Assembly: GCA_964016885.1 (NCBI GenBank)
Contig: OZ024742.1
Location: 159,402,001-159,466,000 of the forward strand
Source: Eledone cirrhosa
Lineage: Eukaryota
Reading direction: 5' to 3'
Length of the DNA stretch: 64,000 nucleotides
Each line of letters opens with the position of its first letter. Position 1 is the first letter of the stretch. The translations under genes and the position numbers were made by a program. Below the pieces are notes generated by a model. That model had not been told where the DNA came from, searched no databases, and worked only from the letters and a program-made list of their open reading frames with translations. Shown one piece after another: positions 1-55,658 of the stretch.

Positions 1-347
1 ATATACTTTCAGATGTTCAACCATCTGGCAGGAAGGTATACGTTGCTGACGATAGCTAATAAGCTTGAAACTAGTACAGCGTTCCTTTGTCATGTTGAAC
101 AAATGAGCAACGATGGTTGCTAGACACTGTACGGCTTAATTCGGGTTGTTTGTTTACAAACAAAGAGAGCATTATAATAAATGTTCGGTGAATCCATACG
201 TACATATATATATATGTGTGCATGTATGTATATATATACATACTACTGTACGTCTGTATACATATATGTATGTACGTATACATACTTATATTTAAGTAAC
301 AGCCGTACTAAGAGTGAGAAATTAAATTTCGTTTAATTTTTTCCGTT

Positions 348-349
<2 letters not shown>
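1..349 (+). mobile_element. HHR-bearing non-coding repeat family A (retrozyme-like), copy truncated by window start
   Basis: Homologous to 48853-49650 (+) and 38655-39101 (-); ends at ...ttccgtttat and runs into (TA)n. Confidence 0.8.
31..85 (+). ncRNA. Type I hammerhead ribozyme, family A
   Basis: cgttg CTGACGA t-agct-aata-agct-t GAAA ctag TA cagcg; stem I cgttg/cagcg extended by ggaa/ttcc; palindromic stem III CTAG. Confidence 0.85.
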
Positions 350-381
<32 letters not shown>

Positions 382-12734: not shown

Positions 12735-13259
12735 TATTGAAGACAAAATCCTTATGGGATTTTCCATGCAAATTAAAAGTTGCAATTACTTTTACAGTTT
12801 TTGAGCTTTTTTTTACCAAATGTGAGGCAGGCATTTCCTATGCCGTCGAGGTAATACAAGAAGATTATTTTTTCTAAAGTGTATACTGTAAGGGAGAAAT
12901 CAATCTAAAAACAATCCTTATATGGCTTTCCATTCAAACCGTTGGCACCTACAACTTTTTCATTTTTAAAGTAATTTCGTCCACATTTGAGGCAGGCATT
13001 ATCTATGCTTCCAGGATATTGTGAATTTATTTTAAAACAACTATTATTACAATGAAGAAATCTGTTAAAACAAATGTTTCCTTCATTATCAGCATAGTTT
13101 TATGTGTACAAAGATTGCACTAAATATTCGTTTGTATTAATTATTGAAGATTCTGCTTATTTTGACAGGTTGGGGACAAATAATTTTCTTCTTTTACTTC
13201 CTAGCTATATATTCTTAGCATAATTTCAAACCCCGTGATACGCCGGGTAAATCTGCTAG
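12735..13259 (+). mobile_element. Non-autonomous Helitron-like element
   Basis: 3' hairpin cccg...cggg followed by aatctgCTAG|T; 5' end uncertain. Confidence 0.55.
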
Positions 13260-13376
13260 TATATATATATGTACATAATAGAAAAACCGAGGGAGTTTCG
13301 TTTTTTCTATTATATACACTCTACTTGTGCATAGGGTGCTTGATTTGGTACCAACACCAATACTTCACCGTACTAC

Positions 13377-13469
<93 letters not shown>

Positions 13470-13471
<2 letters not shown>

Positions 13472-14065
13472 CCCCCTACACATAAATATAGTAACATTTT
13501 TAATAGAAATACTATTAAAATTTCTTACTCTATGACTCCTCACCTTGCACATAGCATCACAGCTTCAAATTTAGCTAAACTACCTAGCCGTAGGAACACG
13601 TGCAACCCTGTAGTTAGTACTAACTGTAATTGTAGGAATCGGGTTGATTGCCCCCTATCCGGGAAATGCCTCTCTAGTAACATTGTCTACAAATGTAAGG
13701 TTGTAACACCCACGTCCCGTAGGGCCTACATAGGGTTAACCGCCAATAGATTCAAGCAGCGTCTTTACATGCATACCCATTCTTTTCGTTACCCTCTAAG
13801 AAGGAATATGACGTCACTTTCAGCTTATATCTGGAGTCTTAAAGACAACCACACCCAATATAAATTACACTGGGAGATCCTAGCTAGGTCTAGATCGTAT
13901 AACGGAAATAAAAGACCATGTGACCTCTGCGCCGCTGAGGCCCTGGAAATACTCTACGCCACAGACCACATCTTAAACAAAAAATCTGAGGCAATTTCGG
14001 CTTGTAAACATAAATTGCACAAAACTTTCCTGTATTACAGCCCCACGTTATACCCTAACGGATAG
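13470..14065 (+). pseudogene. Penelope-like element C-terminus (linker + GIY-YIG endonuclease), Hydra-clade-like, 5'-truncated
   Basis: NIFNRNTIKISYS...CNCRNRVDCPLSGKCL..NIVYKC..AYIGLT..FKQR..H..CDLC..E..LNKKSE..CKH; starts at (TA)n; ~1-kb 3' region ends with HHR C. Confidence 0.85.
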
Positions 14066-14973
14066 TACGATCGATACGTGGATATTTTACGTCTTGATGT
14101 GGGAGCTAAGTATATGTTTTGTTTATACCTTTACTTATTTGCATAGGTAAGTATATATCACCCGTGTGTTTTGTGAAGGTACGTATACCTTCTCGTACGT
14201 ATATTTGATTGTTATGGCGTATAATTTTATATTTTCTGGTACATATGGTTTGGCTATGTGTATACGGGAGTTTTGCGTCTGTGTGAGTATGAAGGTTCGT
14301 ACGTATGTGGGTGTGTGTATATGTGTACTTCATGTTTTGGTTGACTTACGTCTCCGAACATTCGTGTATTTACATGTAGGTATGTGTGTGCGCTTGTTAT
14401 ATACGTATTTATTTATTTATATACGTTTATATAATTATTTATTTATTTGTATACACGCATACACACACACACATATTTATATGTGCGTGGTTTTGTATAC
14501 CTATGGTAAGTTTTTGCGTATGCTTGTGTATGTACGTATTTGTTTGCGTGTATGTATTTATTTATTTCTATTACTTCTGTATTGTATTTATTTACTTTGT
14601 TCTTAATTCTGTAGCGGAGATTCATTCGGTCTCCTAGTTAGAATTTTAGTCTACGACTTCTGCTATACCATTTACGTGGTTTTGTCTTTGCGTTTCTCCA
14701 CGCTCCACATATGACGTATTATCTTCGTTTTTTTTTCGTTCATTGCCAGAGAACGTCTCTATGCACCACCTAAGAGAACATTAGTCTACGACCTCTTTTA
14801 TACCATAAACGTGGTTCTGTCTTTGCGCGTAATTGTTTTTCACCGCTCCTATTAATGACGTATCTTATTCGTTTTTTCCCGTTCTTTGCCAGGGAACGTT
14901 TCCATGAACCAAAGTATCTTCTTCCTGTCTTCCTCCGGTTGCAACGTTTTTTGAAATATCCAGTTCTGCGTTT

Positions 14974-15049
14974 ACAGATTGACTTTGTTAGTTTCAGAAG
15001 ATCCCGTTAAGGGTGAAAGCAGCGATTCTTTGCTTAAACTTGAATCTGT
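14974..15049 (+). ncRNA. HHR-like motif family C in PLE 3' pLTR (CAGAAGA core)
   Basis: acagatt..gttt CAGAAGA tccc-gttaa-gggt GAAA gca..tgc TT aaac..aatctgt. Confidence 0.6.
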
Positions 15050-15175
15050 TATTTTAATAAATATTTGCTCTACGGTTCTTATATATTTGATATATATTTA
15101 TCCTTATCGAGCCCTCTTTGGATTTTAGTCTTCAAATTTATTATTATTACTATATATATATATATAGTAATAATA

Positions 15176-17092: not shown

Positions 17093-17967
17093 TATATGAA
17101 TAAAGTTAGTCCTTCATCAGTGATCTTCCAACCTTCATTGGTATTTCATCGCTTTAAAGACCATATACCTCCGGTTGGTGCGAGCAACGGCTAAAGAAAG
17201 TCGTTGGGACACGTAAATAAAGGGAACGAGCGAGAGTGTAAACAATCAAAGATGGTAATGCAACGAAAAGTGAGGAAGAAAGAGTCAAGTCCCAGATATC
17301 TATGAATGTAAGTTCGGTGAAATCGTGAACGAGAGAGAATAAGGACCATCAAACCTAGTTGAAATGTGAGCAAGGAAGGAATTCCGCACAGGTCAAACGG
17401 GAGGAAGAAGGAGTCTAGTCCCTGAATTCGGTGAACATAAGCTCTGTGAAATCGTAGACAAGAGAAAAAAATGAACAACCAGCCTGGTCAAGCGTGCGCG
17501 AGAAAAGAATTACGCACAGGTCAAACGGGAGGAAGTAGGAGAGGTAGTAGCAGAGAGTGAGTGAGTGAAGGGTGAGGAAGAGGCTAACAGAGAGAGTGAC
17601 TGTTAGAGGGGGTAAAGGGAGGTGAAAGATACAGAGGAAGCAGTAAGAACGAAATAGAGGGGTCACAGCGGAGGAAAATATATATGTGAATATGAAAACA
17701 AACGTGCTGCGTGGTTGCAAATGGGTTACATATGAATAAAGTTAGTCCTTCATCGGTGATCTTCCAACCTTCATTGGTATTTCATCGCTTTAAAGACCAT
17801 ATACCTCCGGTTGGTGCGAGCAACGGCTAAAGAAAGTCGTTGGGACACGTAAATAAGGGGAACGAGCGAGACTGCAAACAATCAAAGATGGTAATGCAAC
17901 GAGAAGTGAGGAAGAAAGAGTCAAGTCCCAGATTTCTATGAATGTAAGTTCGGTGAAATCGTGAACG
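17093..17967. repeat. Direct repeat of ~237 bp (17093-17331, 17730-17967) around a purine-rich spacer
   Basis: Two highly similar copies about 637 bp apart. Confidence 0.85.
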
Positions 17968-18079
17968 TGTATATATATATATATATATATGTATACACAT
18001 ATACACACACACATATATATACACACATATATATATACACACACACACACATATATATATATATAGACACAGACACACA

Positions 18080-18985
18080 CTTAGATATATTAATGTTAAT
18101 TCTAACCACCCCCAAAACATCACTGATAACTTAGTAAAAAGTGTCTCTATTAGAATCTCTGGCCTCTCTGCCAATGAAGATATATTTAACGCCTCTGCCT
18201 CCTACTACAATGACGCCCTCGCCCGCAGCGGATTTAAAGAAAAGATAACCTACCTAGAAACCACTGCAAGAATGCAGAGGAGGCATAGGCAGATTAGCTG
18301 GTACAACCCTCCCTTCAATAGAGAGGTCTCTACACCGATAGCTAGGATTTTCTTCACTTTGCTGAAAACACACTTCCCCATACAACATAGGTACTACACC
18401 ATCTTTAATAAGAACACAATAAGACTCTCCTACTCCACCACACCTAACCTAGCTAGAAATATAGCCAATCACAACTCTAAAAAATTAAATAAGCCAACCA
18501 CCTCCGAACCCAATCCCCGGACTGGGGCCTTGTGTAATTGCCTAAATAAGGAAGCCTGCCCACTTGAAAACAAATGCCTGACAAATGATATCGTATACAA
18601 ATGCGATGTCATCTCAGGCACCGATGATTGCAACAACAAAAAGAGTTACATCGACATGACTTCCAATAACTTAAGACCCGTTGGTATGCCCATACCCACT
18701 CCTTCAGAAGACCGGACAAATCAAACCAGACAACACTCGCTTCCTATGTTTGGGATCTCAAAAGGAACTCCACCCCTTCACGCTTAAATGAAAAAGCTTA
18801 AACAGAAAGCGCGCTCATACAACGGAGGACACAAGGGCTGCGACCTTTGTATCTCAGAGAGCTACGAAAATTTTATTCGCCAAGGGCCCGCTACTGAACA
18901 AACTCTCTGAACACTGTCCGAACTGCATGCACAAAAACTTTGCAACTTTCAAATACCTTAAGCCAGTGTTAATGCCCGATGGCTA
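18080..18985 (+). pseudogene. Penelope-like element (RT thumb + GIY-YIG), Hydra-clade-like, frameshifted and 5'-truncated
   Basis: YINVNSNHP..RISGLS..YYNDAL..SWYNPPF..IFNKNTIRLSYS..CNCLNKEACPLENKCL..IVYKC..SYID. Confidence 0.85.
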
Positions 18986-19340
18986 AAAACGACTTCCCCC
19001 TTTTTGTTTTTTTTGTTTTTAACGCCAGCCGACAAAATAGCCCCTCTACCTCCTTCCCACCCCACCCCTACCCCTCCTCAACCTGAAACACGGCCACTAT
19101 GGTTATGTAAGTACCTCTTACCTATCTGCATTTTATGCCTGTAGAGCTGTTTTTATATGCCTGTGTATATGCGTATATTTATGAGTACTTATTTGTAAGT
19201 ATTTATATGAGTGGCCGTTCGTTTGTATGCATATCGCTGTGTGTAGGTGCGTTCACATGTCATCTATGTGTGTATATTTACATGTATGTATATATGTATT
19301 TGTGTATGTGCAGTTTAACAGTCAGAGGTTCATCACTTCA

Positions 19341-19405
19341 TGACTGATGAACCTGTGGCTGTTAAACTGCACATTTCTGTGGCGAAACGAACTTAATTCG
19401 TATCA
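19341..19405 (+). ncRNA. Degenerate HHR family E in PLE 3' region
   Basis: tga CTGATGA...GAAA cgaa-cttaa-ttcg TA tca; stem II poorly closed. Confidence 0.45.
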
Positions 19406-19700
19406 GCAAACGTATAGTTATAAGGTTAGTAATTTAAAACTCTAATTCAGTGATTTGATTCTGACTTAGGTTTTTTCTATTTAATTGTTAAACCTGTAGA
19501 TATTGTTTTCTATACAGTAACGGTAAAAATCACTTGTAATAATTCTTTACACACATTTCACTGTGTAACACACTTCTATTTGCGTAATATATTTGTATCT
19601 GAGCTCAGAAGAGAATTCTCTATTCTTCTTTGAGCTAATATTATTATTATTATTGTGAACTGCGGAATACTCTTAATTCCGATCCTAGTATATGTGTGTG

Positions 19701-38113: not shown

Positions 38114-38233
38114 GGAGGTGAGTTTTATTGTACAATAAAGCAATGCAGATATCGGATAAGAAGCACTCTACAGTTTGTAGGACTGGAGTATACATAATAT
38201 ATAAGATCAAAAGATGGTTAAAGGAGTTCCATG

Positions 38234-38303
38234 TATTTTATTATGCGCATTTCAAAAACAAACATCATCATGCAATAATATTTGTGTTTTCATCAGATAA
38301 ATA
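38234..38303 (-). ncRNA. Type I hammerhead ribozyme, family G
   Basis: tatttat CTGATGA aaacacaaatattattgcatgatgatgtttgttttt GAAA tgcgca TA ataaaata. Confidence 0.8.
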
Positions 38304-38361
38304 TGTTGATTTAAAACTGCACTATCCACAAGTGTTTTTTAGCCTTCATATCATGTCCTCC

Positions 38362-38432
38362 TGTTTTATCTGATGAAAACACAAATATTATTGCATGATG
38401 ATGTTTGTTTTTGAAATGCGCATAATAAAATA
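38362..38432 (+). ncRNA. Type I hammerhead ribozyme, family G
   Basis: tgttttat CTGATGA [long stem II] GAAA tgcgca TA ataaaata; palindromic stem III. Confidence 0.85.
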
Positions 38433-38495
38433 CATGGAACTCCTTTAACCATCTTTTGATCTTATATATTATATATATATATATATATTTATAAC

Positions 38496-38645
38496 TCTAA
38501 TGCTCTATTACGTGTTCAAGCTGACAGGCTGAGGCAATGCTGGGGCACCGCCATTCATATATATATATATATATATATATATCTAATGCTCTATTACGTG
38601 TTCAAGCTGACAGGCTGAGGCGATGCTGGGGCACCGCCATTCATA
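38496..38645. repeat. Tandem duplication of a ~62-bp unit separated by (TA)n
   Basis: tctaatgctctattacgtgttcaagctgacaggctgaggc..gctggggcaccgccattca x2. Confidence 0.85.
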
Positions 38646-38654
38646 CATATATAT

Positions 38655-39230
38655 AAAGGGAAAAAATGAAACGAAATTTCATTTCCCACTCTTAGTACGG
38701 CTGTTACTTAAATATAAGTATGTACACGTACATACATATATGTATACAGACCTACAGTAGTATGTATAAACATATGCATACATGCACACATATATATATG
38801 TACGTGTGGATTCACCGAATATTTATTATAATGCTCGGTGTGTTTGTAAACAAACATCATGTATTAATCCGTAGTGTCCAGAAACCATCGTTGCTCGTTT
38901 GTTCAACACTGACAAAGGAACGCTGTACTAGTTTCAAGCTTATTAGCTATCGTCAGCAACGTATACCTTCCTGCCAGATTGTTGAACGTATATACTTACA
39001 TTATGCATATTAACGGCTGAGTAGCCCAATTTGCATATCGAGTGGGTTAATCGGCCAGGTGCACCGAAAACGATAAACGGAAAAAAAGAAACGAAATTTC
39101 ATTGAACAAACGAGCAACGATGGTTGCTGGACACTACGGCTTAATACGGGATGTTTGTTTACAAACACACCAAGCATTATAATAAATGTTAATAAATCCA
39201 TACGTACATTATAATAAATCCATACGTACA
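38655..39230 (-). mobile_element. Family A retrozyme-like unit with terminal redundancy, plus an inverted partial copy (39102-39230)
   Basis: Junction sequence gaaacgaaatttcat is present at both ends of the unit. Confidence 0.8.
38917..38971 (-). ncRNA. Type I hammerhead ribozyme, family A
   Basis: Reverse complement equals the motif at 31-85. Confidence 0.85.
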
Positions 39231-39236
39231 TATATA

Positions 39237-39336
<100 letters not shown>

Positions 39337-39399
39337 TGTATATATATATATATATTCATGTATATATATATATATATTCATGTATATATATATATATTC

Positions 39400-39444
<45 letters not shown>

Positions 39445-39733
39445 TGTATATATATATATATTCATGTATATATATATATATATATTCATGTATATATATA
39501 TATATATATTCATGTATATATATATATATATATTCATGTATATATATATATATATATTCATGTATATATATATATATATTCATGTATATATATATATATA
39601 TTCATGTATATATATATATATATATATTCATGTATATATATATATTCATGTATATATATATATTCATGTATATATATATATTCATGTATATATATATATA
39701 TATATTCATGTATATATATATATATATATATAT

Positions 39734-40939
39734 AAGCAGGGACTAGAGAGAAAGGGCCTCAAAGTCAACATGACAAAGACTAAGGTCCTTATAAGTAGAC
39801 GAGAAAACAGAACCCAGATCCCCTCAGGGAAATGGCCTTGCTCAGTATGTAGGAAAGGTGTAGGTAGGAACTCCATTCTTTGCCCCAAATGCAAACAATG
39901 GGTACACAAGAGATGTAGCGGGATCTCAGGAAGCTTAATTAAGAATGTAGGATTCACATGCAGCAGCTGTGCTGAAACAGCAAGCAAACAGCCACAGGAA
40001 ACAAGTACCACCAATCTCTGGGAGGGCCCTGTAGAAACAGTAGACAGCTTCTGCTACCTAGGTGACCGAATTAGCAACGGAGGTGGGTGCTCAGAAAGTA
40101 CAATAACTAGGGTAAGAACGGGATGGAAGAAGTTTAGGGAACTACTACCACTGCTAGCTGCAAAAGGCTTCTCCCTCAGAATGAAAGGCAGACTGTATGA
40201 TGCGTGTATCCGAACAGCGATGTTGCATGGTAGTGAGACCTGGGCGCTGAAGGTGGAAGACTTACGTAGATTAGAGAGAAACGAAGCCTGCATGCTCCGA
40301 TGGATGTGTAACAGTAATATACGTGAACGACAAAGCATAAATGAATTGAGAGAGAGACTGAGCATAAGAGGAATCAAATGCTGCGTGCAGGAGAGGCGGT
40401 TACGCTGGTATGGACATGTGATGCGTATGAAGGATGACAGCTGCATAAAAAGGTGCAGAGCACTAGAAGTTGATGGAAACCGCGGAGTGGGGAGACCCAA
40501 GATGACTTGGGATGAGGTGATAAAAGCCGACCTTACCCAACTACACCTCTCAAAGTCAATGACACACGACCGTGACTTCTGGCGTCACGCAGTAATACAG
40601 GGTACCCGACCTCCCATGGGTACATGCTGAAGCATATAAACAATATGCCCCCCCCCCCCCCCACCGCAAGGTGGTCGTGGAGGTGCCACGGCAAAAAAGC
40701 ACCCAGCCCACACTGTAAAGTGGACGTGTAGGCGCCACGAAAAAGCACCCAGCACTCACTGTAAATGAGGTTGGTGTTAGGAAGGGCATCCAGCTGTAGA
40801 AATCAAGCCAGATCAGTTCCTGTATGAGCAAGGCATGGTCAGCCGACCAGACACTGCCCACAACAGGACAACCCGTCTAACCCATGCTAGCGTGGAAGAA
40901 CGGACGTAAAACGGTGATGATGATGATGATGATGATGAT
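39734..40939 (+). mobile_element. 5'-truncated RTE-type LINE copy, essentially identical to 42468-43667
   Basis: Starts at KQGLERKG; same 3'UTR and (TGA)n tail. Confidence 0.9.
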
Positions 40940-40997
40940 ATATATTCATGTATATATATATATATATATTCATGTATATATATATATATATTCATGT

Positions 40998-43364
40998 ATA
41001 GCCTTCCCTAGTGAGGAATGTACATCCCAACATAGCTTAGTTGTCAGCGACCTCACGGTCAGAACTAGACGAGCCCTGAAACAGAGGCCAACCTGGAGAA
41101 GAAAGATCTGGAAGCTGAAAGTCCCCTCAACCAGTAACAGATTTAAAGATATTTTACTCAACGCCTACGACAGTAAAGAAGAACAGATAGAGACATTTAA
41201 CGTAGAAGAGAACTGGGAGTTCCTAAAAAATAACTTACTAGAGGCGACGGATGAGGTTTGTGGCTGGAGTAAGACCTCAAGCAGGAGGAGAGTGACTTGG
41301 TGGTGGAACAATAAGGTAGATGAAGCAGTCAAGGCCAAGAGACAGGCATGGAAAGAATGGAAGAACGGGGGGAGCAGGGTACATTACATAGAGACCAAGA
41401 GGGAAGCTAGGCGACAAGTATACTTAGCTAGGAGGGAAGCAGAGGATAGAAAATTCAAGCATGTTTTACAACGTGAGGACCAGAAACAGGAGGTATTCAA
41501 GATTGCGAGGCAGTGTGTCAGAGATAGTTGTGATGTCATTGGAGAGAAGTGTATCCGGAATGATAAAGGTGAGCTTGCCCTCACAAGTGCTGAGAAGAAA
41601 GATGCATGGAAGAGTCATTATGATAGATTACTAAATGAGGAGAATGCATGGGAAGAAGAGACCCTACCCCACGTAGACCCTATAGAGGGACCAGCAGTAC
41701 AAGTCAGCGGCAGCGTAGTAAGTAAGGCAATCAGAGATATGAAGATAGGGAAGGCAACCGGTCCATCGGGTATAGCTGCCGAGATGCTGAAGGCATCTGG
41801 GTCTGTAGGTCACACTATAACCACACGTATCGTTAACCAGGTAATACTAGAGGGGGCCATACCAAAAGATTGGTGCAGTAGCATCATTGTCAACTGCTAC
41901 AAAGGTAAAGGCGATGCACTAGATAGAGGAAACTATAGAGGTATAAAGTTGATGGACCAGGTCATGAAAGTAACAGAAAGAGTTATAGCACAGCTGATTA
42001 GGGACCGGGTGAATATAGACGAGATGCAATTTGGGTTTGTTCCAGGGAAAGGCACCACTGATGCGCTCTTCCTTGTGAGGCAATTACAGGAAAAGTACCT
42101 AGCTAAAAGTAAGCCACTCTACTTGGCATTTGTCGACCTTGAGAAAGCCTTTGACAGAGTTCCACGTGCAGTAATCTGGTGGGCTCTTAGAAAACTAGGA
42201 GTAGATGAATGGCTTGTGAAAGCGGTACAAGCCATGTATAGGGGAGCAGTCAGCAAAGTTAGGATTGGCAATGAGTATAGCGAGGAATTTAGCGTACAGG
42301 TTGGGGTCCACCAGGTCTCTGTTCTTAGCCCTCTCCTGTTCATCATAGTCCTGCAGGCAATAACGGAGGAGTTTAAGACCGGATGCCCATGGGAACTCCT
42401 GTATGCTGATGACCTCGCACTCATAGCTGAATCTATGGTAGAACTAGAGAATAAATTCCAAACCTGGAAGCAGGGACTAGAGAGAAAGGGCCTCAAAGTC
42501 AACATGACAAAGACTAAGGTCCTTATAAGTAGACGAGAAAACAGAACCCAGATCCCCTCAGGGAAATGGCCTTGCTCAGTATGTAGGAAAGGTGTAGGTA
42601 GGAACTCCATTCTTTGCCCCAAATGCAAACAATGGGTACACAAGAGATGTAGCGGGATCTCAGGAAGCTTAATTAAGAATGTAGGATTCACATGCAGCAG
42701 CTGTGCTGAAACAGCAAGCAAACAGCCACAGGAAACAAGTACCACCAATCTCTGGGAGGGCCCTGTAGAAACAGTAGACAGCTTCTGCTACCTAGGTGAC
42801 CGAATTAGCAACGGAGGTGGGTGCTCAGAAAGTACAATAACTAGGGTAAGAACGGGATGGAAGAAGTTTAGGGAACTACTACCACTGCTAGCTGCAAAAG
42901 GCTTCTCCCTCAGAATGAAAGGCAGACTGTATGATGCGTGTATCCGAACAGCGATGTTGCATGGTAGTGAGACCTGGGCGCTGAAGGTGGAAGACTTACG
43001 TAGATTAGAGAGAAACGAAGCCTGCATGCTCCGATGGATGTGTAACAGTAATATACGTGAACGACAAAGCATAAATGAATTGAGAGAGAGACTGAGCATA
43101 AGAGGAATCAAATGCTGCGTGCAGGAGAGGCGGTTACGCTGGTATGGACATGTGATGCGTATGAAGGATGACAGCTGCATAAAAAGGTGCAGAGCACTAG
43201 AAGTTGATGGAAACCGCGGAGTGGGGAGACCCAAGATGACTTGGGATGAGGTGATAAAAGCCGACCTTACCCAACTACACCTCTCAAAGTCAATGACACA
43301 CGACCGTGACTTCTGGCGTCACGCAGTAATACAGGGTACCCGACCTCCCATGGGTACATGCTGA
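40998..43364 (+). CDS. RTE-type LINE reverse transcriptase, 5'-truncated open frame (APE domain almost entirely missing), with a PHD-like Cys/His finger after RT
   Basis: SQH end of APE; KATGPSG; NYRGIKL; QFGF; AFVDLEKAFDRV; LYADD (YADD 42402-42413); CSVC..CPKC..H..C..CSSC; RLRWYGHV; GRPK. Confidence 0.92.
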   Translation: MAFPSEECTSQHSLVVSDLTVRTRRALKQRPTWRRKIWKLKVPSTSNRFKDILLNAYDSKEEQIETFNVEENWEFLKNNLLEATDEVCGWSKTSSRRRVTWWWNNKVDEAVKAKRQAWKEWKNGGSRVHYIETKREARRQVYLARREAEDRKFKHVLQREDQKQEVFKIARQCVRDSCDVIGEKCIRNDKGELALTSAEKKDAWKSHYDRLLNEENAWEEETLPHVDPIEGPAVQVSGSVVSKAIRDMKIGKATGPSGIAAEMLKASGSVGHTITTRIVNQVILEGAIPKDWCSSIIVNCYKGKGDALDRGNYRGIKLMDQVMKVTERVIAQLIRDRVNIDEMQFGFVPGKGTTDALFLVRQLQEKYLAKSKPLYLAFVDLEKAFDRVPRAVIWWALRKLGVDEWLVKAVQAMYRGAVSKVRIGNEYSEEFSVQVGVHQVSVLSPLLFIIVLQAITEEFKTGCPWELLYADDLALIAESMVELENKFQTWKQGLERKGLKVNMTKTKVLISRRENRTQIPSGKWPCSVCRKGVGRNSILCPKCKQWVHKRCSGISGSLIKNVGFTCSSCAETASKQPQETSTTNLWEGPVETVDSFCYLGDRISNGGGCSESTITRVRTGWKKFRELLPLLAAKGFSLRMKGRLYDACIRTAMLHGSETWALKVEDLRRLERNEACMLRWMCNSNIRERQSINELRERLSIRGIKCCVQERRLRWYGHVMRMKDDSCIKRCRALEVDGNRGVGRPKMTWDEVIKADLTQLHLSKSMTHDRDFWRHAVIQGTRPPMGTC

Positions 43365-43667
43365 AGCATATAAACAATATGCCCCCCCCCCCCACCGCAA
43401 GGTGGTCGTGGAGGTGCCACGGCAAAAAAGCACCCAGCCCACACTGTAAAGTGGACGTGTAGGCGCCACGAAAAAGCACCCAGCACTCACTGTAAATGAG
43501 GTTGGTGTTAGGAAGGGCATCCAGCTGTAGAAATCAAGCCAGATCAGTTCCTGTATGAGCAAGGCATGGTCAGCCGACCAGACACTGCCCACAACAGGAC
43601 AACCCGTCTAACCCATGCTAGCGTGGAAGAACGGACGTAAAACGGTGATGATGATGATGATGATGAT
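43365..43667 (+). mobile_element. RTE 3'UTR and (TGA)n tail
   Basis: aggaagggcatccagctgtagaaa ... ggacgtaaaacggtgatgatg. Confidence 0.85.
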
Positions 43668-44043: not shown

Positions 44044-44253
44044 TGTATATATGTATATATATTTATATATATATATATATATATTCATGTATATATATTG
44101 TTATACTTTGGGAGGGCCATGTTGCCAATAAGAAACACACGCACCAGTTGCTTTCACTTCAATTTAATTTATTATATATTTATAAATTTACAAATTTATA
44201 AATTTCTGGTTGGTTGGTTGGTTCCACAACCAGATAGTTGTTTATATATATAT

Positions 44254-44298
44254 AGTCATAGTTCTTTCGTCACACACTCTGTGACCTCTTCAGTGACT
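44254..44298 (-). ncRNA. Minimal type I hammerhead ribozyme, family H, sense to the PLE at 44604-45070
   Basis: agtca CTGAAGA g-gtcaca-gagtg-tgtgac GAAA gaac TA tgact. Confidence 0.75.
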
Positions 44299-44344
44299 GG
44301 GGATTTCTTTCTTCGTTTCTGTGCCTTTCCTTTCTTCTATCCTA

Positions 44345-44400
44345 CGCCATTTTGTTTGTGTGTGGGTTGCGTGCTCAGTTTGCGCATGCGCCACATCCGG
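44345..44400 (-). promoter_or_regulatory. Candidate pLTR internal promoter (ETS-, NRF1- and YY1-like motifs)
   Basis: On - strand: CCGGATGT, GCGCATGCGCA, then CAAAATGGCG about 50 nt upstream of HHR H. Confidence 0.4.
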
Positions 44401-44603
44401 GTGTCTGTGTGTGTTTGTGTTCATTTTTCTATTTTTCTATTTATATTTTTCTATTTGTTTGTTTATTTATTTATTTATTGTTGGTTGGTTGTTTGTTCTA
44501 TGTGTGTGTGTGTTTTCATTTTGTCTTGTGTGTGTTTTCATTTTGTGTGTGTTTTCAATTGTAAGTTGTTTGTTCTATGTGTGTGTGTGTTTTCATTTTG
44601 TCC

Positions 44604-45070
44604 TTAATTGTAAGTTGTGATGTTGCTGTTCCACTCATATTTTCTATTTAATTTTGGTTTTAATTCTTTTATGCTTACTGCCTCTGTAATTTGCCTAAAC
44701 ATTGCGTCTTTCTTGTGTGTGGATTCTATTTTTATTTCTATGCTCTCTAATTTACCCCTGTGTTCTATCTTAGCATGTTGGTAGAGCACAGATGATTCTT
44801 TACTATCTTGGAGGTCTCGCCAGTGTTCATATATTCGTTCCCCTATACTACGAGCTGTCTCACCTATGTACACTATATTTTTGTTTCTACATTGTCCTTC
44901 AGTACATCTTATGCTATATACTACATTTCTAGTTTTACAGTTAATATGGGGGCTTATTTTACAGGTTATACATTTCTTATCTATACATGAGGGTCTTTGG
45001 AACGGGTATGTCTTGCTAATAAGTGTTTTTACGGAGGTACCAGGTCTAACAAATTCAGAAACGAAACATG
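44604..45070 (-). pseudogene. Penelope-like GIY-YIG endonuclease C-terminus, Naiad-like, 5'-truncated
   Basis: [22 protein letters not shown]....[17 protein letters not shown]...H..RQITEAVSI..LNRKYEW. Confidence 0.85.
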
Positions 45071-45194
45071 TATATATATTTATATATATATATATATATT
45101 CATGTATATATGTATATATATTTATATATATATATATATTCATGTATATATATTTATATATATATATATATATATTCATGTATATATGTATATA

Positions 45195-45230
<36 letters not shown>

Positions 45231-48175: not shown

Positions 48176-48521
48176 TCATCATCATAATCAACGTTTAACG
48201 TCCATGTTCCACGCTTGCATGGGTTTGGACGGGGGTTTTCCCACTTGAGGCAAGAGTGATTGTCTTGCTCGCATAGGACTGTCTGGCAGGTTTTCTACAG
48301 TTGGATGCCCTTCCATGCCCTTCCTAACACCAACCACATTTACAGTGTGGGTCTGGGAGGTTTTTACCGTGTTGCCTACACGGCCACATTACAGCGTGGA
48401 CTGTGTGTTTTTTTTGTCGTGACACCTACACGATCTCATCTGTTTCGGCCTGGATGGTGTGGCACCAACATAACTTTACAGAGAAGGGGGCGGTGTGGAT
48501 GGGGTGGGGGTGGTGGGACGG
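48176..48521 (-). mobile_element. Diverged RTE 3'-end copy running into the gap
   Basis: (CAT)n, aacgtcc..ttccacgcttgcatgggt, ttctacagttggatgcccttcc. Confidence 0.7.
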
Positions 48522-48721: not shown

Positions 48722-48969
48722 CTGGAATGGAGTAAATATATTTTCCGAAGATCATAAAGAAAAGCATTCCGTCGTCAGGAAAGTCTCTTTTCGTGTAAGT
48801 TTCCAGGCATAGCGAGGACTCTGGAAAATTCTTTATAATTATCTCTAATTCATTTCCGTTTATCGTTTTCGGTGCACCCGGCCGATTAACCCACTCGATA
48901 TGCATATTGGGCTGCTCAGCCCAACCGTTAATATGCATAAGGTAAGTATATACGTTCAACAATCTGGCA

Positions 48970-49024
48970 GGAAGGTATACGTTGCTGACGATAGCTAACA
49001 AGCTTGAAACTAGTACAGCGTTCC
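48970..49024 (+). ncRNA. Type I hammerhead ribozyme, family A
   Basis: CTGACGA 48985-48991; GAAA 49006-49009; ctag TA cagcg. Confidence 0.85.
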
Positions 49025-49397
49025 TTTGTCAGTGTTGAACAAACGAGCAACGGTGGTTACTAGACACTACGGCTTAATACGGGATGTTTGTTTACAAACA
49101 CACCGAGCATTATAATAAATGTTCGGTGAATCCATACGTGCATATATATATATGTGTGCATGTATGTATATATATATATACATACTACTGTACGTCGGTA
49201 TACATATATATATGTATGTACGTGTACATACTTATATTTAAGTAACAGCCGTACTAAGAGTGGGAAATGAAATATCGTTTCATTTTTTCCGTTTATCGTT
49301 TTCGGTGCACCCGGCCGATTAACCCACTCGATATGCATATTGGGCTACTCAGCCATTAATATGCATAAGGTAAGTATATACGTTCAACAATCTGGCA

Positions 49398-49452
49398 GGA
49401 AGGTATACGTTGCTGACGATAGCTAACAAGCTTGAAACTAGTACAGCGTTCC
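49398..49452 (+). ncRNA. Type I hammerhead ribozyme, family A
   Basis: CTGACGA 49413-49419; GAAA 49434-49437; ctag TA cagcg. Confidence 0.85.
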
Positions 49453-49649
49453 TTTGTCAGTGTTGAACAAACGAGCAACGGTGGTTGCTAGACACTACGG
49501 CTTAATACGGGATGTTTGTTTACAAACACATCGAGCATTATAATAAATGTTCGGTGAATCCATACGTGCATATATATATGTGTGCATGTATGTATATATA
49601 TATATACATACTACTGTACGTCGGTATACATATGTACGTGTACATACTT

Positions 49650-51278
<1,629 letters not shown>

Positions 51279-51394
51279 TGTTGGAGGTGAGTTTTACTGT
51301 AGTACAATAAAGCAAGGCAGATATCGGATAAGTAGCACTCTACAGTTTGTAGGACTGGAGTATAAATAACATAAGATCAAAAGATGGTTCCATG

Positions 51395-51465
51395 TATTTT
51401 ATTATGCGCATTTCAAATACAAATATCATCATGAGATGATATTTGCGTTTTCGTCAGATTAAATA
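51395..51465 (-). ncRNA. Type I hammerhead ribozyme, family G
   Basis: tatttaat CTGACGA aaacgcaaatatcatc-tcat-gatgatatttgtattt GAAA tgcgca TA ataaaata. Confidence 0.8.
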
Positions 51466-51880
51466 GGGATACATGATATGAAGGTTAAAAAACACTTGTG
51501 AATAGTGAAGTTTTAAATCAACATATGAAAAGTAATTTAAGATTGATGTGTGATATTGGGAAAAAAATGAGGGCGGGGTTGGAAAGGAGGAAAAAGAGGA
51601 GGAGATGAGAGTAAAGAATGGTGGAGGAGGAGTATAATAAGGAAGGATGAGACAGGAGGAGAGATGGGTGATAGAAAGAGAGAGATAGATTTTATAATTG
51701 AGAAAAAAAAAATTGTTTCACAGAGAGAGGTTAAAAATCCGTTGAAAGATAATATATAATTTAAAAGAATTTGAAAATTGATGAAGAGAAAAAATTAAGA
51801 ATAATATTAAATTAAGGTTTGTATATTGAAGGGTTTAATGATATGTGCGATGAAAAGAAATTGTTAATATGTATTATTAA

Positions 51881-51926
<46 letters not shown>

Positions 51927-51928
<2 letters not shown>

Positions 51929-53365
51929 TACAATGGGTGCATCCGATTCATCGCAATTGACTGATTTAATTGGTATCTTTATTTTGAATTCTTTCATTCG
52001 GAAAATTCCTCAACTTTGCGGTAGAATTTATCGGAACGATGGACTTTTTACTATCTTAAATTACAACATAGTTAACCTTAATATTATTAAGAACAATATA
52101 CACGATCTCTTTAACCAAAATAACTTAAAAATTGAATTTGATAACAACGTCAAACTAGCTAACTTCTTGGATATACCCCTTAATCTTGACACTGGCCTAT
52201 ATTACCCTTACCATAAAAACAATGAGAATCTAAATTATGTTAATTTTAAATCTAACCACCCCACAAACATTAAAAATGCTATAGTTAGTAATATTGGAAA
52301 AAGAATATCAAACCTATCATCTAATAAACATATCTTTGATGCTAACGCCAATTACTATAATAATGCGCTTTCTAAAGCCGGTTATCCTGATAAAATCAAA
52401 TACAGTAAAGAAACCAATCCTAGAAGATCTTACAGTAAAATAATTAATTATGATCATTCCAATAACTTAAATAAAAGACCTAGATACAAAAATATAATCT
52501 GGTATAATGCTCCTTTCTCTATTTCTATTAATAATAATATTCCTAAATTATTCTTTAGTGCCTTAAATAAATGCTTCCCTCACATATCTATAGTAAAATA
52601 TTTAACAAACATACAATAACATTTTCTTATTCCACCTCCTTCAACATCTCCAACATTATCTATAAACACAACAATAAAATATTAAATACTAAATCTCTTC
52701 CTTCCAACACTGAATGTCATAATAATAGCAGTAGTACTCCCGACGTCATTGTTAACTCTAGGCTAGTTTCTGCAAACCCAAATACGACGTCAAACGTAAC
52801 TTCGTCAAATGTTCTTAATACCAATCTAAATCAGGAAACTATTATTCCTATCGTAAATAACTTCTCCAATCCAATTCCTCCTATAGATAACACTAGGTCA
52901 CTTGTTAATAACTCTGTTAATTTCTCTAATAGCAATTGTAATTGCCCTGTTAAAAATAAATGTCGTCTCAACAACCATTGTCTTGAAAAAAACTTAGTCT
53001 ATGAATGTAAAGTTATAACTGATACCAATTCCTTTACCTATTTCGGCTCCACTTCCACCTCATTCAAAGCTCGTTTTTATAATCACAATTCTTCTTTTAA
53101 ATACCAACTTAAAAGAACCAAAACGGCACTCTCAGAACTCATATGGTCCTTGAAAGACAAAAATATTAACTATAACATCTCTTGGAGGAAAGTTTGTTCT
53201 GCCTCTCCCTACTTGAATGCCTCCCTATCCAGAACGTGTAATCTTTGTTTATGTGCGAAATTTACCATTATATCTAATTTAGATTCTATAATAAATAGAC
53301 GCACTGACTTATTTTCTCTCTGCTTGCATAAATTCCACAGAACATTCCATGAAGTATACAGCTAA
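51927..53365 (+). pseudogene. PLE RT (from motif B') + thumb + GIY-YIG, Hydra-clade-like; frameshift near 52580
   Basis: ITMGASDS; IYRNDG (expected YRDD); NFLDI; SNHP; IIWYNAPF; CNCPVKNKC; LVYEC..TYFGST..FKAR..H; CNLC; CLH. Confidence 0.9.
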
Positions 53366-54216: not shown

Positions 54217-54425
54217 TTCATTTTACGTCCGCTTTTCCCTGCTTGCAAGGGTGGGACGGGAACTGATTCTGGCTTGATTTCTACAGCTGGATGCCCTTCC
54301 TAACACCAACCTCATTTACAGTGAGTGCTGGGTGCCTTTTTTACCGTGGCACCTCCACGATCACTTTGCAGTGGAATGATATGGACCCCAGTCCCTATCA
54401 TCTCATTTCTACAGCTGAGTAAACT
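54190..54425 (-). mobile_element. Short RTE-tailed insertion in the PLE 3' pLTR
   Basis: (CAT)n tail; shares ctggcttgatttctacagctggatgcccttcctaacaccaacctcatttacagtgagtgctgggtgc with the RTE 3'UTR; tcatca at both junctions. Confidence 0.75.
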
Positions 54426-54740
54426 CATCAATTTTCAAATTCTTTTAAATTATATATTATCTTCCAACGGATTTTTAACCTCTCTCTGTGAAACAATATA
54501 TATATTTTTTTCTCAATTATAAAGGCTATCTCTCTCTTTCTATCACCCATCTCTCCTCCTATCTCATCCTTCCTTATTATACTCCCTCCCCACCATTCTT
54601 TACTCTCATCTCCTCCTCTTTTTCACCCCCCCCCCAATTTTTTCCCCAATATCGCACATCAATCTTAAATTACTTTTCATATATTGATTTAAAATTTCAC
54701 TATTCACAAGTGTTTTTTTAACCTTCATATCATGTATCCC

Positions 54741-54811
54741 TATTTAATCTGACGAAAACGCAAATGTCATCTCATGATGATATTTGTTTTTGAAATGCGC
54801 ATAATAAAATA
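54741..54811 (+). ncRNA. Type I hammerhead ribozyme, family G
   Basis: tatttaat CTGACGA aaacgcaaatgtcatc-tcat-gatgatatttgttttt GAAA tgcgca TA ataaaata. Confidence 0.82.
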
Positions 54812-55658
54812 CATGGAACTCTTTTAACCATCTTTTGATCTTATATTATATATATATATTATATATATATATATTATATATAACGGTTTTCTGCTGTTTC
54901 CCCTCAACCAAATTTCACTCACCAGGTATTGATTAACTTGAGGCTGTAGCAGAAGTCACAACCCCAAAGTGCCGCGCAGCAGGGCTGAACCAAGAACCAC
55001 GAAGTTGCGATATGAACTTAATAATCGCATAGACACGCACACGCACGCACGCATATATACAGGCAAACAGAAATAACAAAGCAAACGACACAGTACAACG
55101 AAGAAATATATTACTAGTTTTACTACTTTTCAAAGATGAGTTTTCTGTCGACGGTGTTCTATCTCTCTGTTAAAGTATAGTAAAGAAACCGAATATTAAA
55201 GGACCCATTATTTTTCAGACAGACAATACTATGTAGATAAAAACAAAGATAATAATTCTAAACATTGGTTAACAAAGGTTGTTGTTCTTAGATGAGAATA
55301 AACACTTTAAAACAAATAGTATTGTATAATATAGAGAACATGGTAATAATATAGTCTATGTGATGTTAATGTTTTAGTGTAATACGTAGATAAAACAGGT
55401 TGAAGTGTGAAACTGGAGAGTGAAAGAATAGGAGGAAGAGCGAAAGAGAATATCACGTGACCGAAAAAGCAGACGACATCGTTAATGTCTCTCAAGTTTT
55501 TCAAATAATTGTCGAATAAAAACAATACTGATCAAGAAAATAGTTGCAATGAATAACACCACTGCTAAACATATTATTTTTTTGAAATTTGTTTTACACT
55601 TTTCAATAAATATTGCTTTGTATAAGCACCATGAAATTTGAAAAGAAAGTTTAATTAT

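What the first reader, a model, noticed from the sequence alone, without database searches (positions are those of the whole stretch)
38655..39230. Terminal redundancy in dispersed family A copies implies a circular or multimeric template
Seen: this copy carries the unit junction (gaaatttcgtttc..ttttttcc.tttat on the - strand) at both ends. The copy at 1-349 ends at the same junction and runs into (TA)n. The HHR is identical in all four copies except for one loop II base, while flanks have indels. An inverted partial copy abuts the unit, as in PLE insertions. Inference: reverse transcription of a circular or concatemeric RNA by a (TA)n-targeting PLE enzyme, with constraint on the ribozyme.
Basis: partly seen in the sequence, partly recalled or inferred. 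Interest (0 to 1): 0.75.

Follow-up and report, generated by a model that had tools for sequence, protein, structure and literature searches.

The report
Two-armed hammerhead retrozyme, Penelope-style insertion
This is one copy of an abundant 422-base non-coding repeat that carries a predicted self-cutting hammerhead RNA and sits in TA microsatellites as two back-to-back arms ending at two fixed sites; it was likely pasted by a Penelope-type retrotransposon enzyme from a longer-than-unit, possibly circular, RNA, and elements of this kind are already known.

Summary
The redundancy is 31 nt: one 422-nt unit plus a 5'-truncated second unit. The family has at least 8,639 exact hammerhead (HHR) copies in the genome. 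Its 3' ends are fixed at two sites 59 nt apart; its 5' ends vary. Of 58 two-armed insertions, 43 had both ends scorable: 41 pair one tailed with one tail-less arm, and 36 of 36 do when both ends are in (TA)n. Coding Penelope-like elements (PLEs) in this genome show the same footprint. 90 of 116 arms cross the HHR cut site with no 5' pile-up anywhere, so the template was longer than one cleaved unit. A circle fits but is not shown: some arms are subfamily mosaics, and no RNA data were available. The HHR is constrained in source lineages (helices covary, core invariant across families); copies diverge about half as fast there as in flanks. The parent PLE was not found. Verdict: new member of the known animal non-LTR retrozymes / non-autonomous PLEs. 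The scan has reported the same architecture before, for other families in this genome and in other genomes.

The parts
38653..39103 (-). Tailed arm: one full 422-nt unit (39072-38653) preceded by a 5'-truncated second unit; its last bases are shared with the (TA)n run
39073..39103 (-). 31-nt terminal redundancy (unit 392-422); the 5' truncation falls in the tail hairpin
   Evidence: 29/31 identical to 38683-38653
38920..38962 (-). Predicted type I hammerhead: helix I 6 bp, CUGACGA core, extra U, helix II 4 bp, GAAA, 2-bp helix III with self-complementary loop; predicted cut between 38926 and 38925
   Evidence: cleavage not tested
38653..38711 (-). 59-nt tail (unit 364-422) between the two fixed 3' ends, with a predicted hairpin
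38989..39036 (-). Octamer motif (39036-39029) and TATA-like box (38994-38989), spaced roughly as upstream of two U6 genes of this genome; candidate promoter (lead only)
   Evidence: local alignment to the U6 upstream DNA not significant
39102..39230 (+). Inverted second arm, unit 167 to about 280, head-to-head with the first; runs into the unit's internal TA microsatellite, 3' end lost
39230..39734 (.). Expanded (TA)n tract, followed by an RTE-type LINE fragment at 39735
1..350 (+). Family A tailed arm of a second two-armed insertion; the tail-less minus arm lies just upstream of the window
   Evidence: L043
48853..49653 (+). Family A tandem (about 1.9 units) ending at the tail-less site in (TA)n
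48722..48841 (-). Piece of another HHR-bearing tandem family (F, about 520-540-nt unit), head-to-head with the family A arm; far end hidden by an N gap
44095..45197 (-). 3' part of a coding PLE (GIY-YIG endonuclease, own HHR near 44303-44249, tail-less end). Same footprint as family A but no sequence similarity to it; context, not the shown parent

Best explanation
This is a copy of a 422-nt non-coding repeat with a predicted hammerhead ribozyme that inserts in (TA)n as two head-to-head arms ending at two fixed sites, likely written by a borrowed Penelope-type RT-endonuclease from a longer-than-unit, probably circular, RNA. Shown by sequence: unit, tandem arms, two fixed 3' ends (unit 363 and 422), variable 5' ends, one-tail pairing, TA targets, HHR covariation. 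Inferred cycle: a tandem locus is transcribed through two HHRs (possibly from the octamer/TATA element); the dimer-type HHR would cut out a monomer that is ligated to a circle; a PLE enzyme would cut both strands of a (TA)n tract; each 3' end would pair with a few A/U bases on either side of the 59-nt tail and prime reverse transcription; the two cDNAs would run on average 400-600 nt regardless of unit borders and be joined head-to-head, often at short microhomologies. I put the circle, as against an uncleaved linear multimer, at about 55%.
For: Ends: 41 of 43 scorable two-armed insertions pair one tailed and one tail-less arm (2 tail+tail, 0 tail-less pairs, p=2e-10 against 0.5); 36 of 36 with (TA)n at both ends. 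Same footprint in the RT/GIY-YIG-coding PLE family N (5 of 5 scorable, plus 1 with a truncated end) and family K (1 of 1 scorable), and in sister family C (2 of 2). No wall: 1 of 116 5' ends within 143-153; 87 entries and 1 stop at the cut site after removing the long-array loci; no 11-nt window enriched, p=0.79. Cut site seamless: 217 of 223 anchored units have the expected spacing, 6 lacked the downstream anchor, none had an indel. One array of about 21 plus at least 8 units shares one length variant in both arms. Arms share subfamily: diagnostic-site discordance 7.6% between arms, 7.0% within arms, 33% for random pairs; 6 rare alleles are shared across arms. HHR: 108 of 108 cells paired over families A, C and D, 8 of 12 pairs change on both sides; 13 of 13 core positions identical between A and C against 69% outside. 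Literature: optional tail on one inverted pLTR (PMC3846280, PMC8557442); two RT start sites bound the tail and both strands are cut and extended (PMC11167929); retrozyme circles in coral, mussel, axolotl (PMC7229834).
Against: No parent PLE: family A similarity was not found in the UTRs of 50 GIY-YIG loci fetched (of 150 listed). Arms are not always homogeneous: L135 switches from old to new subfamily within one arm, L081 and L109 are mixed, L079 alternates two units, L089 has two different units in register in both arms, so a monomeric circle cannot be the only template. Both start sites here share 3-6 TA-like bases with the target, whereas the purified anole PLE primed without homology and used uncleaved RNA (PMC11167929). 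T-runs in the unit would be expected to stop Pol III (general knowledge). The HHR has U.U instead of the usual G-C at the base of helix II (usual pair recalled) and no Rfam match. 54 of 112 clusters are single-armed by BLAST. The sample is not random.
Confidence: 0.72

Rival explanations
1. Same PLE enzyme and same two start sites, but the template is an uncleaved linear read-through transcript of genomic tandem arrays; the HHR cuts rarely or only with protein, and no circle is needed.
For: Mosaic and two-unit-periodic arms (L135, L081, L089, L079). HHR cleavage was not needed for insertion in vitro (PMC11167929). 8 of 9 Xenopus retrozyme dimers did not cleave (10.64898/2026.07.22.740005). Long arrays exist that could act as masters.
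Against: Most arms are 1-2 units (median 389 nt in 96 arms not picked for length), so linear transcripts should often give a 5' wall at the start site or cut site; none is seen. The HHR is kept by compensatory change. 5' truncation would shorten arrays each round.
Confidence: 0.35
2. The template is the HHR-cleaved linear monomer and the enzyme jumps from one monomer to the next, or across the unsealed break.
For: Template switches occur: internal deletions and a family F/A joint. An earlier scan note proposed this for another family (e1-8664908).
Against: No indel at the cut site in 217 anchored units; 1 stop in 157 passes.
Confidence: 0.07
3. The inverted arm arises by fold-back or self-priming of a single cDNA (self-priming model of PMC3846280), and tandems by local DNA recombination after insertion.
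For: 8 of 59 arm pairs break within 15 nt of each other (expected 4.3, permutation p=0.08), some at hairpins (this count includes the window copy). Local duplications exist (L079, L082, L151).
Against: Either arm can be the longer one (tailed longer in 22 of 43). Most breakpoints differ. Fold-back does not explain why the second arm ends at the other fixed site. Tandems are dispersed and young with exact unit joints.
Confidence: 0.1
4. The element is a SINE-like passenger of the RTE-type LINE that also lands in (TA)n here.
For: RTE copies abut family A head-to-head in several loci (L063, L079, L152).
Against: No shared 3' end: RTE ends in (ATG)n. The two-site, two-arm layout matches the coding PLEs.
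Confidence: 0.04

Closest known systems
Metazoan non-LTR retrozymes (Cervera and de la Pena 2020, PMC7229834: abstract and passages; Li, Clavereau and Pollet 2026, 10.64898/2026.07.22.740005: parts 1-3 of 5, main text to the acknowledgements)
   Same: Non-coding, low-GC (38%) head-to-tail repeat with a type I HHR in each unit, short palindromic helix III, dimers to multimers, thousands of copies, coexists with PLEs.
   Different: Unit 422 nt, slightly above the 170-400 nt of the 2020 paper but within the 51-972 nt of the 2026 preprint. Circular RNA and cleavage not shown here. The passages read do not describe two-armed insertions with fixed start sites.
EN+ Penelope-like elements and their non-autonomous derivatives (Craig et al. 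2021, PMC8557442: passages; Arkhipova et al. 2013, PMC3846280: passages; Cervera and de la Pena 2014, PMC4209133: passages)
   Same: Partial tandems, 5' truncation, inverted 5'-truncated copy, optional tail at one end, (TA)n bias, HHR in the repeat, no discernible target duplication. The 2014 paper already proposed circles as the source of PLE tandems.
   Different: No ORF. Tail 59 nt rather than 30-40. No homology to a coding PLE found. Tail pairing is near-obligatory here (36 of 36), where the papers say 'often' or 'optionally'.
Poseidon element PAc of Anolis, in vitro (Frangieh et al. 2024, PMC11167929: parts 1-2 of 4)
   Same: Two internal RT start sites bound the tail; both target strands cut and extended; AT-rich targets; predicted dimer.
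   Different: PAc is autonomous, primed without target homology, and showed no strand difference in start site. Family A start sites end in TA-like bases and the two arms use different sites.

Membership tests
Metazoan non-LTR retrozyme | Type I hammerhead in each unit | tested here: met
   Core motif and covariation; no Rfam match
Metazoan non-LTR retrozyme | Short non-coding head-to-tail repeats, low GC, no LTR | tested here: met
   422-nt unit, GC 0.38, arrays of 2 to about 21 units; no credible ORF over the unit
Metazoan non-LTR retrozyme | [quoted passage not shown] | tested here: met
   Met by the family and by window 48853-49653; the copy at 38655 itself has one HHR
Metazoan non-LTR retrozyme | Self-cleavage of the transcript | not testable with these tools
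   Needs in vitro transcription
Metazoan non-LTR retrozyme | Expressed as linear and circular monomer RNA | not testable with these tools
   No suitable RNA run available
Non-autonomous Penelope-like element | 5' truncation, partial tandem, inverted 5' copy, optional tail | tested here: met
Non-autonomous Penelope-like element | Microsatellite (TA)n target bias | tested here: met
   36 of 43 scorable two-armed insertions have (TA)n at both ends
Non-autonomous Penelope-like element | 3'-end or pLTR homology with a coding PLE of the same genome | tested here: inconclusive
   None in 50 of 150 listed GIY-YIG loci or in PLE ends within the fetched loci; 10,597 candidates exist
Autonomous PLE | ORF with telomerase-like RT and GIY-YIG endonuclease | tested here: not met
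   No such ORF within or continuous with family A arms
Plant LTR retrozyme | Type III HHR in LTRs, 4-bp target duplication | tested here: not met
   Type I topology, tandem units, ends merge into (TA)n

The most novel reading that the evidence does not exclude
A PLE enzyme dimer binds the tail hairpin of one small circular ribozyme RNA and starts two reverse transcriptions, one on each side of the tail and one from each end of a double-strand break, rolling round the circle. The obligatory tailed/tail-less pairing and the lack of any 5' wall are then the genomic record of an asymmetric double-priming, rolling-circle mechanism common to PLEs and retrozymes, with a U6-like promoter in each unit supplying the RNA.
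Probability: 0.35. Interest if true: 0.65.

Novelty: new member of a known kind. Interest (0 to 1): 0.4.

Why it matters
The PLE replication cycle is still undefined, and the PLE-retrozyme link rests on co-occurrence and pLTR similarity. This young, high-copy family gives exact start sites, a near-strict pairing rule and a test for template ends, so a 422-nt RNA and a (TA)n target make a small, defined substrate for testing circle versus multimer and double priming. The element class and each structural feature are in print. I did not find the strict pairing quantified in the five literature searches made, but earlier notes of this scan report it for other families.

Tried and rejected
Rfam scans found no hammerhead family; the miRNA hits are low-complexity matches below gathering score. 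Folding the 71-nt HHR region alone is not more stable than shuffles (z -0.2 to -0.5) and the MFE is not the active fold. RNA: no RNA holder listed; four small-share runs laid nothing; no evidence either way on expression. Parent search: GIY-YIG family search and PLE 3' ends gave no family A homology; L140, where a PLE ORF end precedes a family A piece, looks like a truncated insertion because the HHR part is missing. My first HHR-versus-flank test (private rate 0.0195 vs 0.0185) was biased, because those loci had been picked for lacking an exact HHR match; it was replaced by all tail-selected loci. One search counted the window copy's plus arm as tail-less on a TA-run alignment; this was corrected, which leaves it out. 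Classical L1-type twin priming was rejected because the arms overlap in sequence and the tailed arm does not stop at the second site. U6 promoter alignment: not significant for family A (p 0.3-0.8 on the sense strand, two U6 loci usable of four tried). Whether single-armed copies abutting other repeats are two-RNA chimeras was not settled. The sequence look-up in earlier findings returned nothing. Supplements of the cited papers were not read; those of PMC8557442 list PLE families and could bear on the parent.

Full report
Observation. The minus strand of 38653-39103 holds one full unit plus 31 nt of the preceding unit; the two junction copies match at 29 of 31 nt. An inverted piece (unit 167 to about 280) starts at 39102 and runs into the unit's own TA microsatellite. 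The other window copies are 1-350 and the tandem 48853-49653. Their alignment shows one variable column in the 43-nt hammerhead against 16 of 106 downstream, p=0.025. Unit numbering below starts just after the junction; the reference is a natural 422-nt unit from L032.

The family. The own genome (3.0 Gb) has 8,639 exact matches to a 25-nt HHR stretch and 11,810 to a 23-nt tail stretch, with 0 for the reversed controls. About half of tail-selected copies (28 of 53) keep the exact 25-mer, so roughly 16,000 HHR-bearing units is a fair estimate. I analysed 104 loci: 12 best hits (young, long arrays) and 92 chosen by the two patterns, all but one in the first 48 Mb of contig C1. They gave 112 clusters after duplicates were dropped. 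The sample is not random. Earlier scan notes call the host an octopod; I did not test this.

Ends. 3' ends fall at unit 422 (tailed) or about 363 (tail-less), both ending in TA-like bases that merge with (TA)n; 5' ends vary. I scored 58 two-armed insertions after dropping six rows (five duplicates, one old diverged copy). 15 had a truncated end. Of the other 43, 41 pair tailed with tail-less, 2 are tailed twice (neither has a TA run on its minus arm) and none is tail-less twice. With (TA)n at both ends the count is 36 of 36, p=3e-11. The finding's own insertion cannot be scored because its plus arm has lost its end. 54 clusters were single-armed by BLAST; by eye some have a very short opposite arm and several are cut at the internal TA run by later insertions.

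Link to PLE machinery. A coding PLE family with a 3' fragment in the window (GIY-YIG, E=1e-4; weak RT match in L105) has its own HHR and two ends about 58 nt apart. Its two-armed copies pair one of each in 5 of 5 scorable cases, and a second coding family does so in 1 of 1. Sister family C (460 nt, 64% identical to A over 348 columns) does so in 2 of 2. No coding PLE with sequence similarity to family A was found in 50 GIY-YIG loci, so the enzyme is assigned by footprint only.

Template. 90 of 116 arms cross the predicted cut site and 1 stops within 143-153. After removing the long-array loci there are 87 entries and 1 stop, expected 2.3. No 11-nt window is enriched in 5' ends (max 8, null mean 8.4). 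Spacing across the cut site is exact in 217 of 223 anchored units, with 6 unscored; this sample is heavy in young arrays. A cleaved linear monomer is therefore not the template. One insertion has about 21 plus at least 8 units that share one length variant. These points favour an RNA without a 5' end. Against a monomeric circle as sole template: L135 changes subfamily within an arm, L081 and L109 are mixed, L079 alternates two units, and L089 carries two distinct units in register in both arms. Post-insertion recombination could explain some of these. The two arms usually come from the same lineage: discordance at 25 diagnostic columns is 7.6% between arms, 7.0% within and 33% for random pairs (two clusters there were merged with old neighbours, which inflates the first two). 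Six rare alleles are shared across arms, four within one arm, and 212 are singletons.

Ribozyme. The motif is a type I HHR with a 2-bp helix III whose loop is self-complementary (predicted duplex -5.4 kcal/mol), the architecture that PMC4209133 describes as cleaving in dimers and sparing monomeric circles. Over nine sequences of families A, C and D all 108 cells pair, 8 of 12 pairs change on both sides, and slid controls pair at 27-44% (the rows are related, so these are three lineages, not nine events). Within A, positions 114 and 150 change together: T-G 76, G-T 7, A-T 3, C-G 2, unpaired 4. In 53 tail-selected insertions, non-CpG divergence is 2.3% in the HHR and 4.1% in flanks. Private changes are 19/1940 vs 151/10017 (p=0.075; composition-adjusted p=0.02). 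Shared changes in the core are 0 of 17 columns vs 25 of 198 (p=0.23). Constraint is real but mostly acts on source lineages. Cleavage was not tested.

Promoter lead. Two U6 loci have an octamer near -75 and a TATA box near -30; family A has an octamer at unit 37-44 (65 of 82 insertions exact, 12 with one young variant) and a TATA-like box 41 nt further. The alignment is not significant, and T-runs in the unit are a problem for Pol III, so this stays a lead. That newt satellite 2 has an snRNA-type promoter is recalled; one search did not confirm it.

Comparison and verdict. Partial tandems, an inverted 5' copy, a tail at one end and TA bias are standard PLE features (PMC8557442, PMC3846280). 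The tail equals the gap between two RT start sites (PMC11167929). Circles as the source of tandems were proposed in 2014 (PMC4209133) and shown to exist for retrozymes in 2020 (PMC7229834). A 2026 preprint derives retrozymes from PLE pLTRs (10.64898/2026.07.22.740005). The element is a new member of that kind. The added value is the near-strict tail pairing and the no-wall test. The scan has noted the same pairing in other families and genomes; those are unchecked notes and not independent support. Interest 0.4.

Noticed in passing
L043 3532-4530 (just upstream of the window); L031 1-1190; L194 6438-6650: Sister family C, 460-nt unit, homologous HHR with compensatory helices, same two-armed layout.
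   Followed up: partly
L097 2300-3000; L083; L037: Family D, HHRs about 310 nt apart in L097, same HHR architecture with a different palindromic helix III loop.
   Followed up: partly
window 48722-48853; L146 2641-3301: Family F (HHR-bearing tandem) lies head-to-head with a family A arm in two loci; in the window a short F piece is also joined in the same sense to A. May be insertions made from two different RNAs.
   Followed up: partly
L063, L079, L152, L038; window 48179-48520: 5'-truncated RTE-type LINE or RTE-tailed repeat abutting a family A arm head-to-head; chimeric event or later insertion not resolved.
   Followed up: partly
L032 5695-6118: One array unit contains an inverted patch copied from the opposite arm's end and its flanking DNA; recombination between arms or an assembly error.
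   Followed up: no
window 38115-38477; 51284-51784; 54425-54856: Another two-armed repeat in (TA)n with an HHR-like motif with long helix II; the copies at 51284 and 54425 frame PLE-like ORF fragments (51816-53365).
   Followed up: no
window 38496-38555 and 38582-38642: Two near-identical 60-nt blocks separated by (TA)n just left of the finding; one weak match elsewhere in the loci.
   Followed up: no
window 39735-40939 and 40881-43663: RTE-type LINE with RT and PHD finger; its 3' 1,198 bp are present twice at 99.75% identity, both in (TA)n.
   Followed up: no
window 13205-15150, 17957-19700, 51816-53365: Three further PLE-like 3' fragments with long 3' UTRs; the first ends in a hammerhead-like motif with CAGAAGA in place of CUGANGA.
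   Followed up: no
L082 and L151 (C1 about 19.618-19.625 Mb); L103 and L104: Whole two-armed insertions duplicated locally or as an inverted segmental duplicate.
   Followed up: no
G000 C19 31.78-31.84 Mb: Tandem cluster of about 30 U6-like genes at about 1.8-kb spacing.
   Followed up: no
L145 1-1221: Open frame of 407 residues rich in Tyr/Arg/Met/Gly/Asp repeats that resembles reflectin (resemblance recalled, not tested).
   Followed up: no
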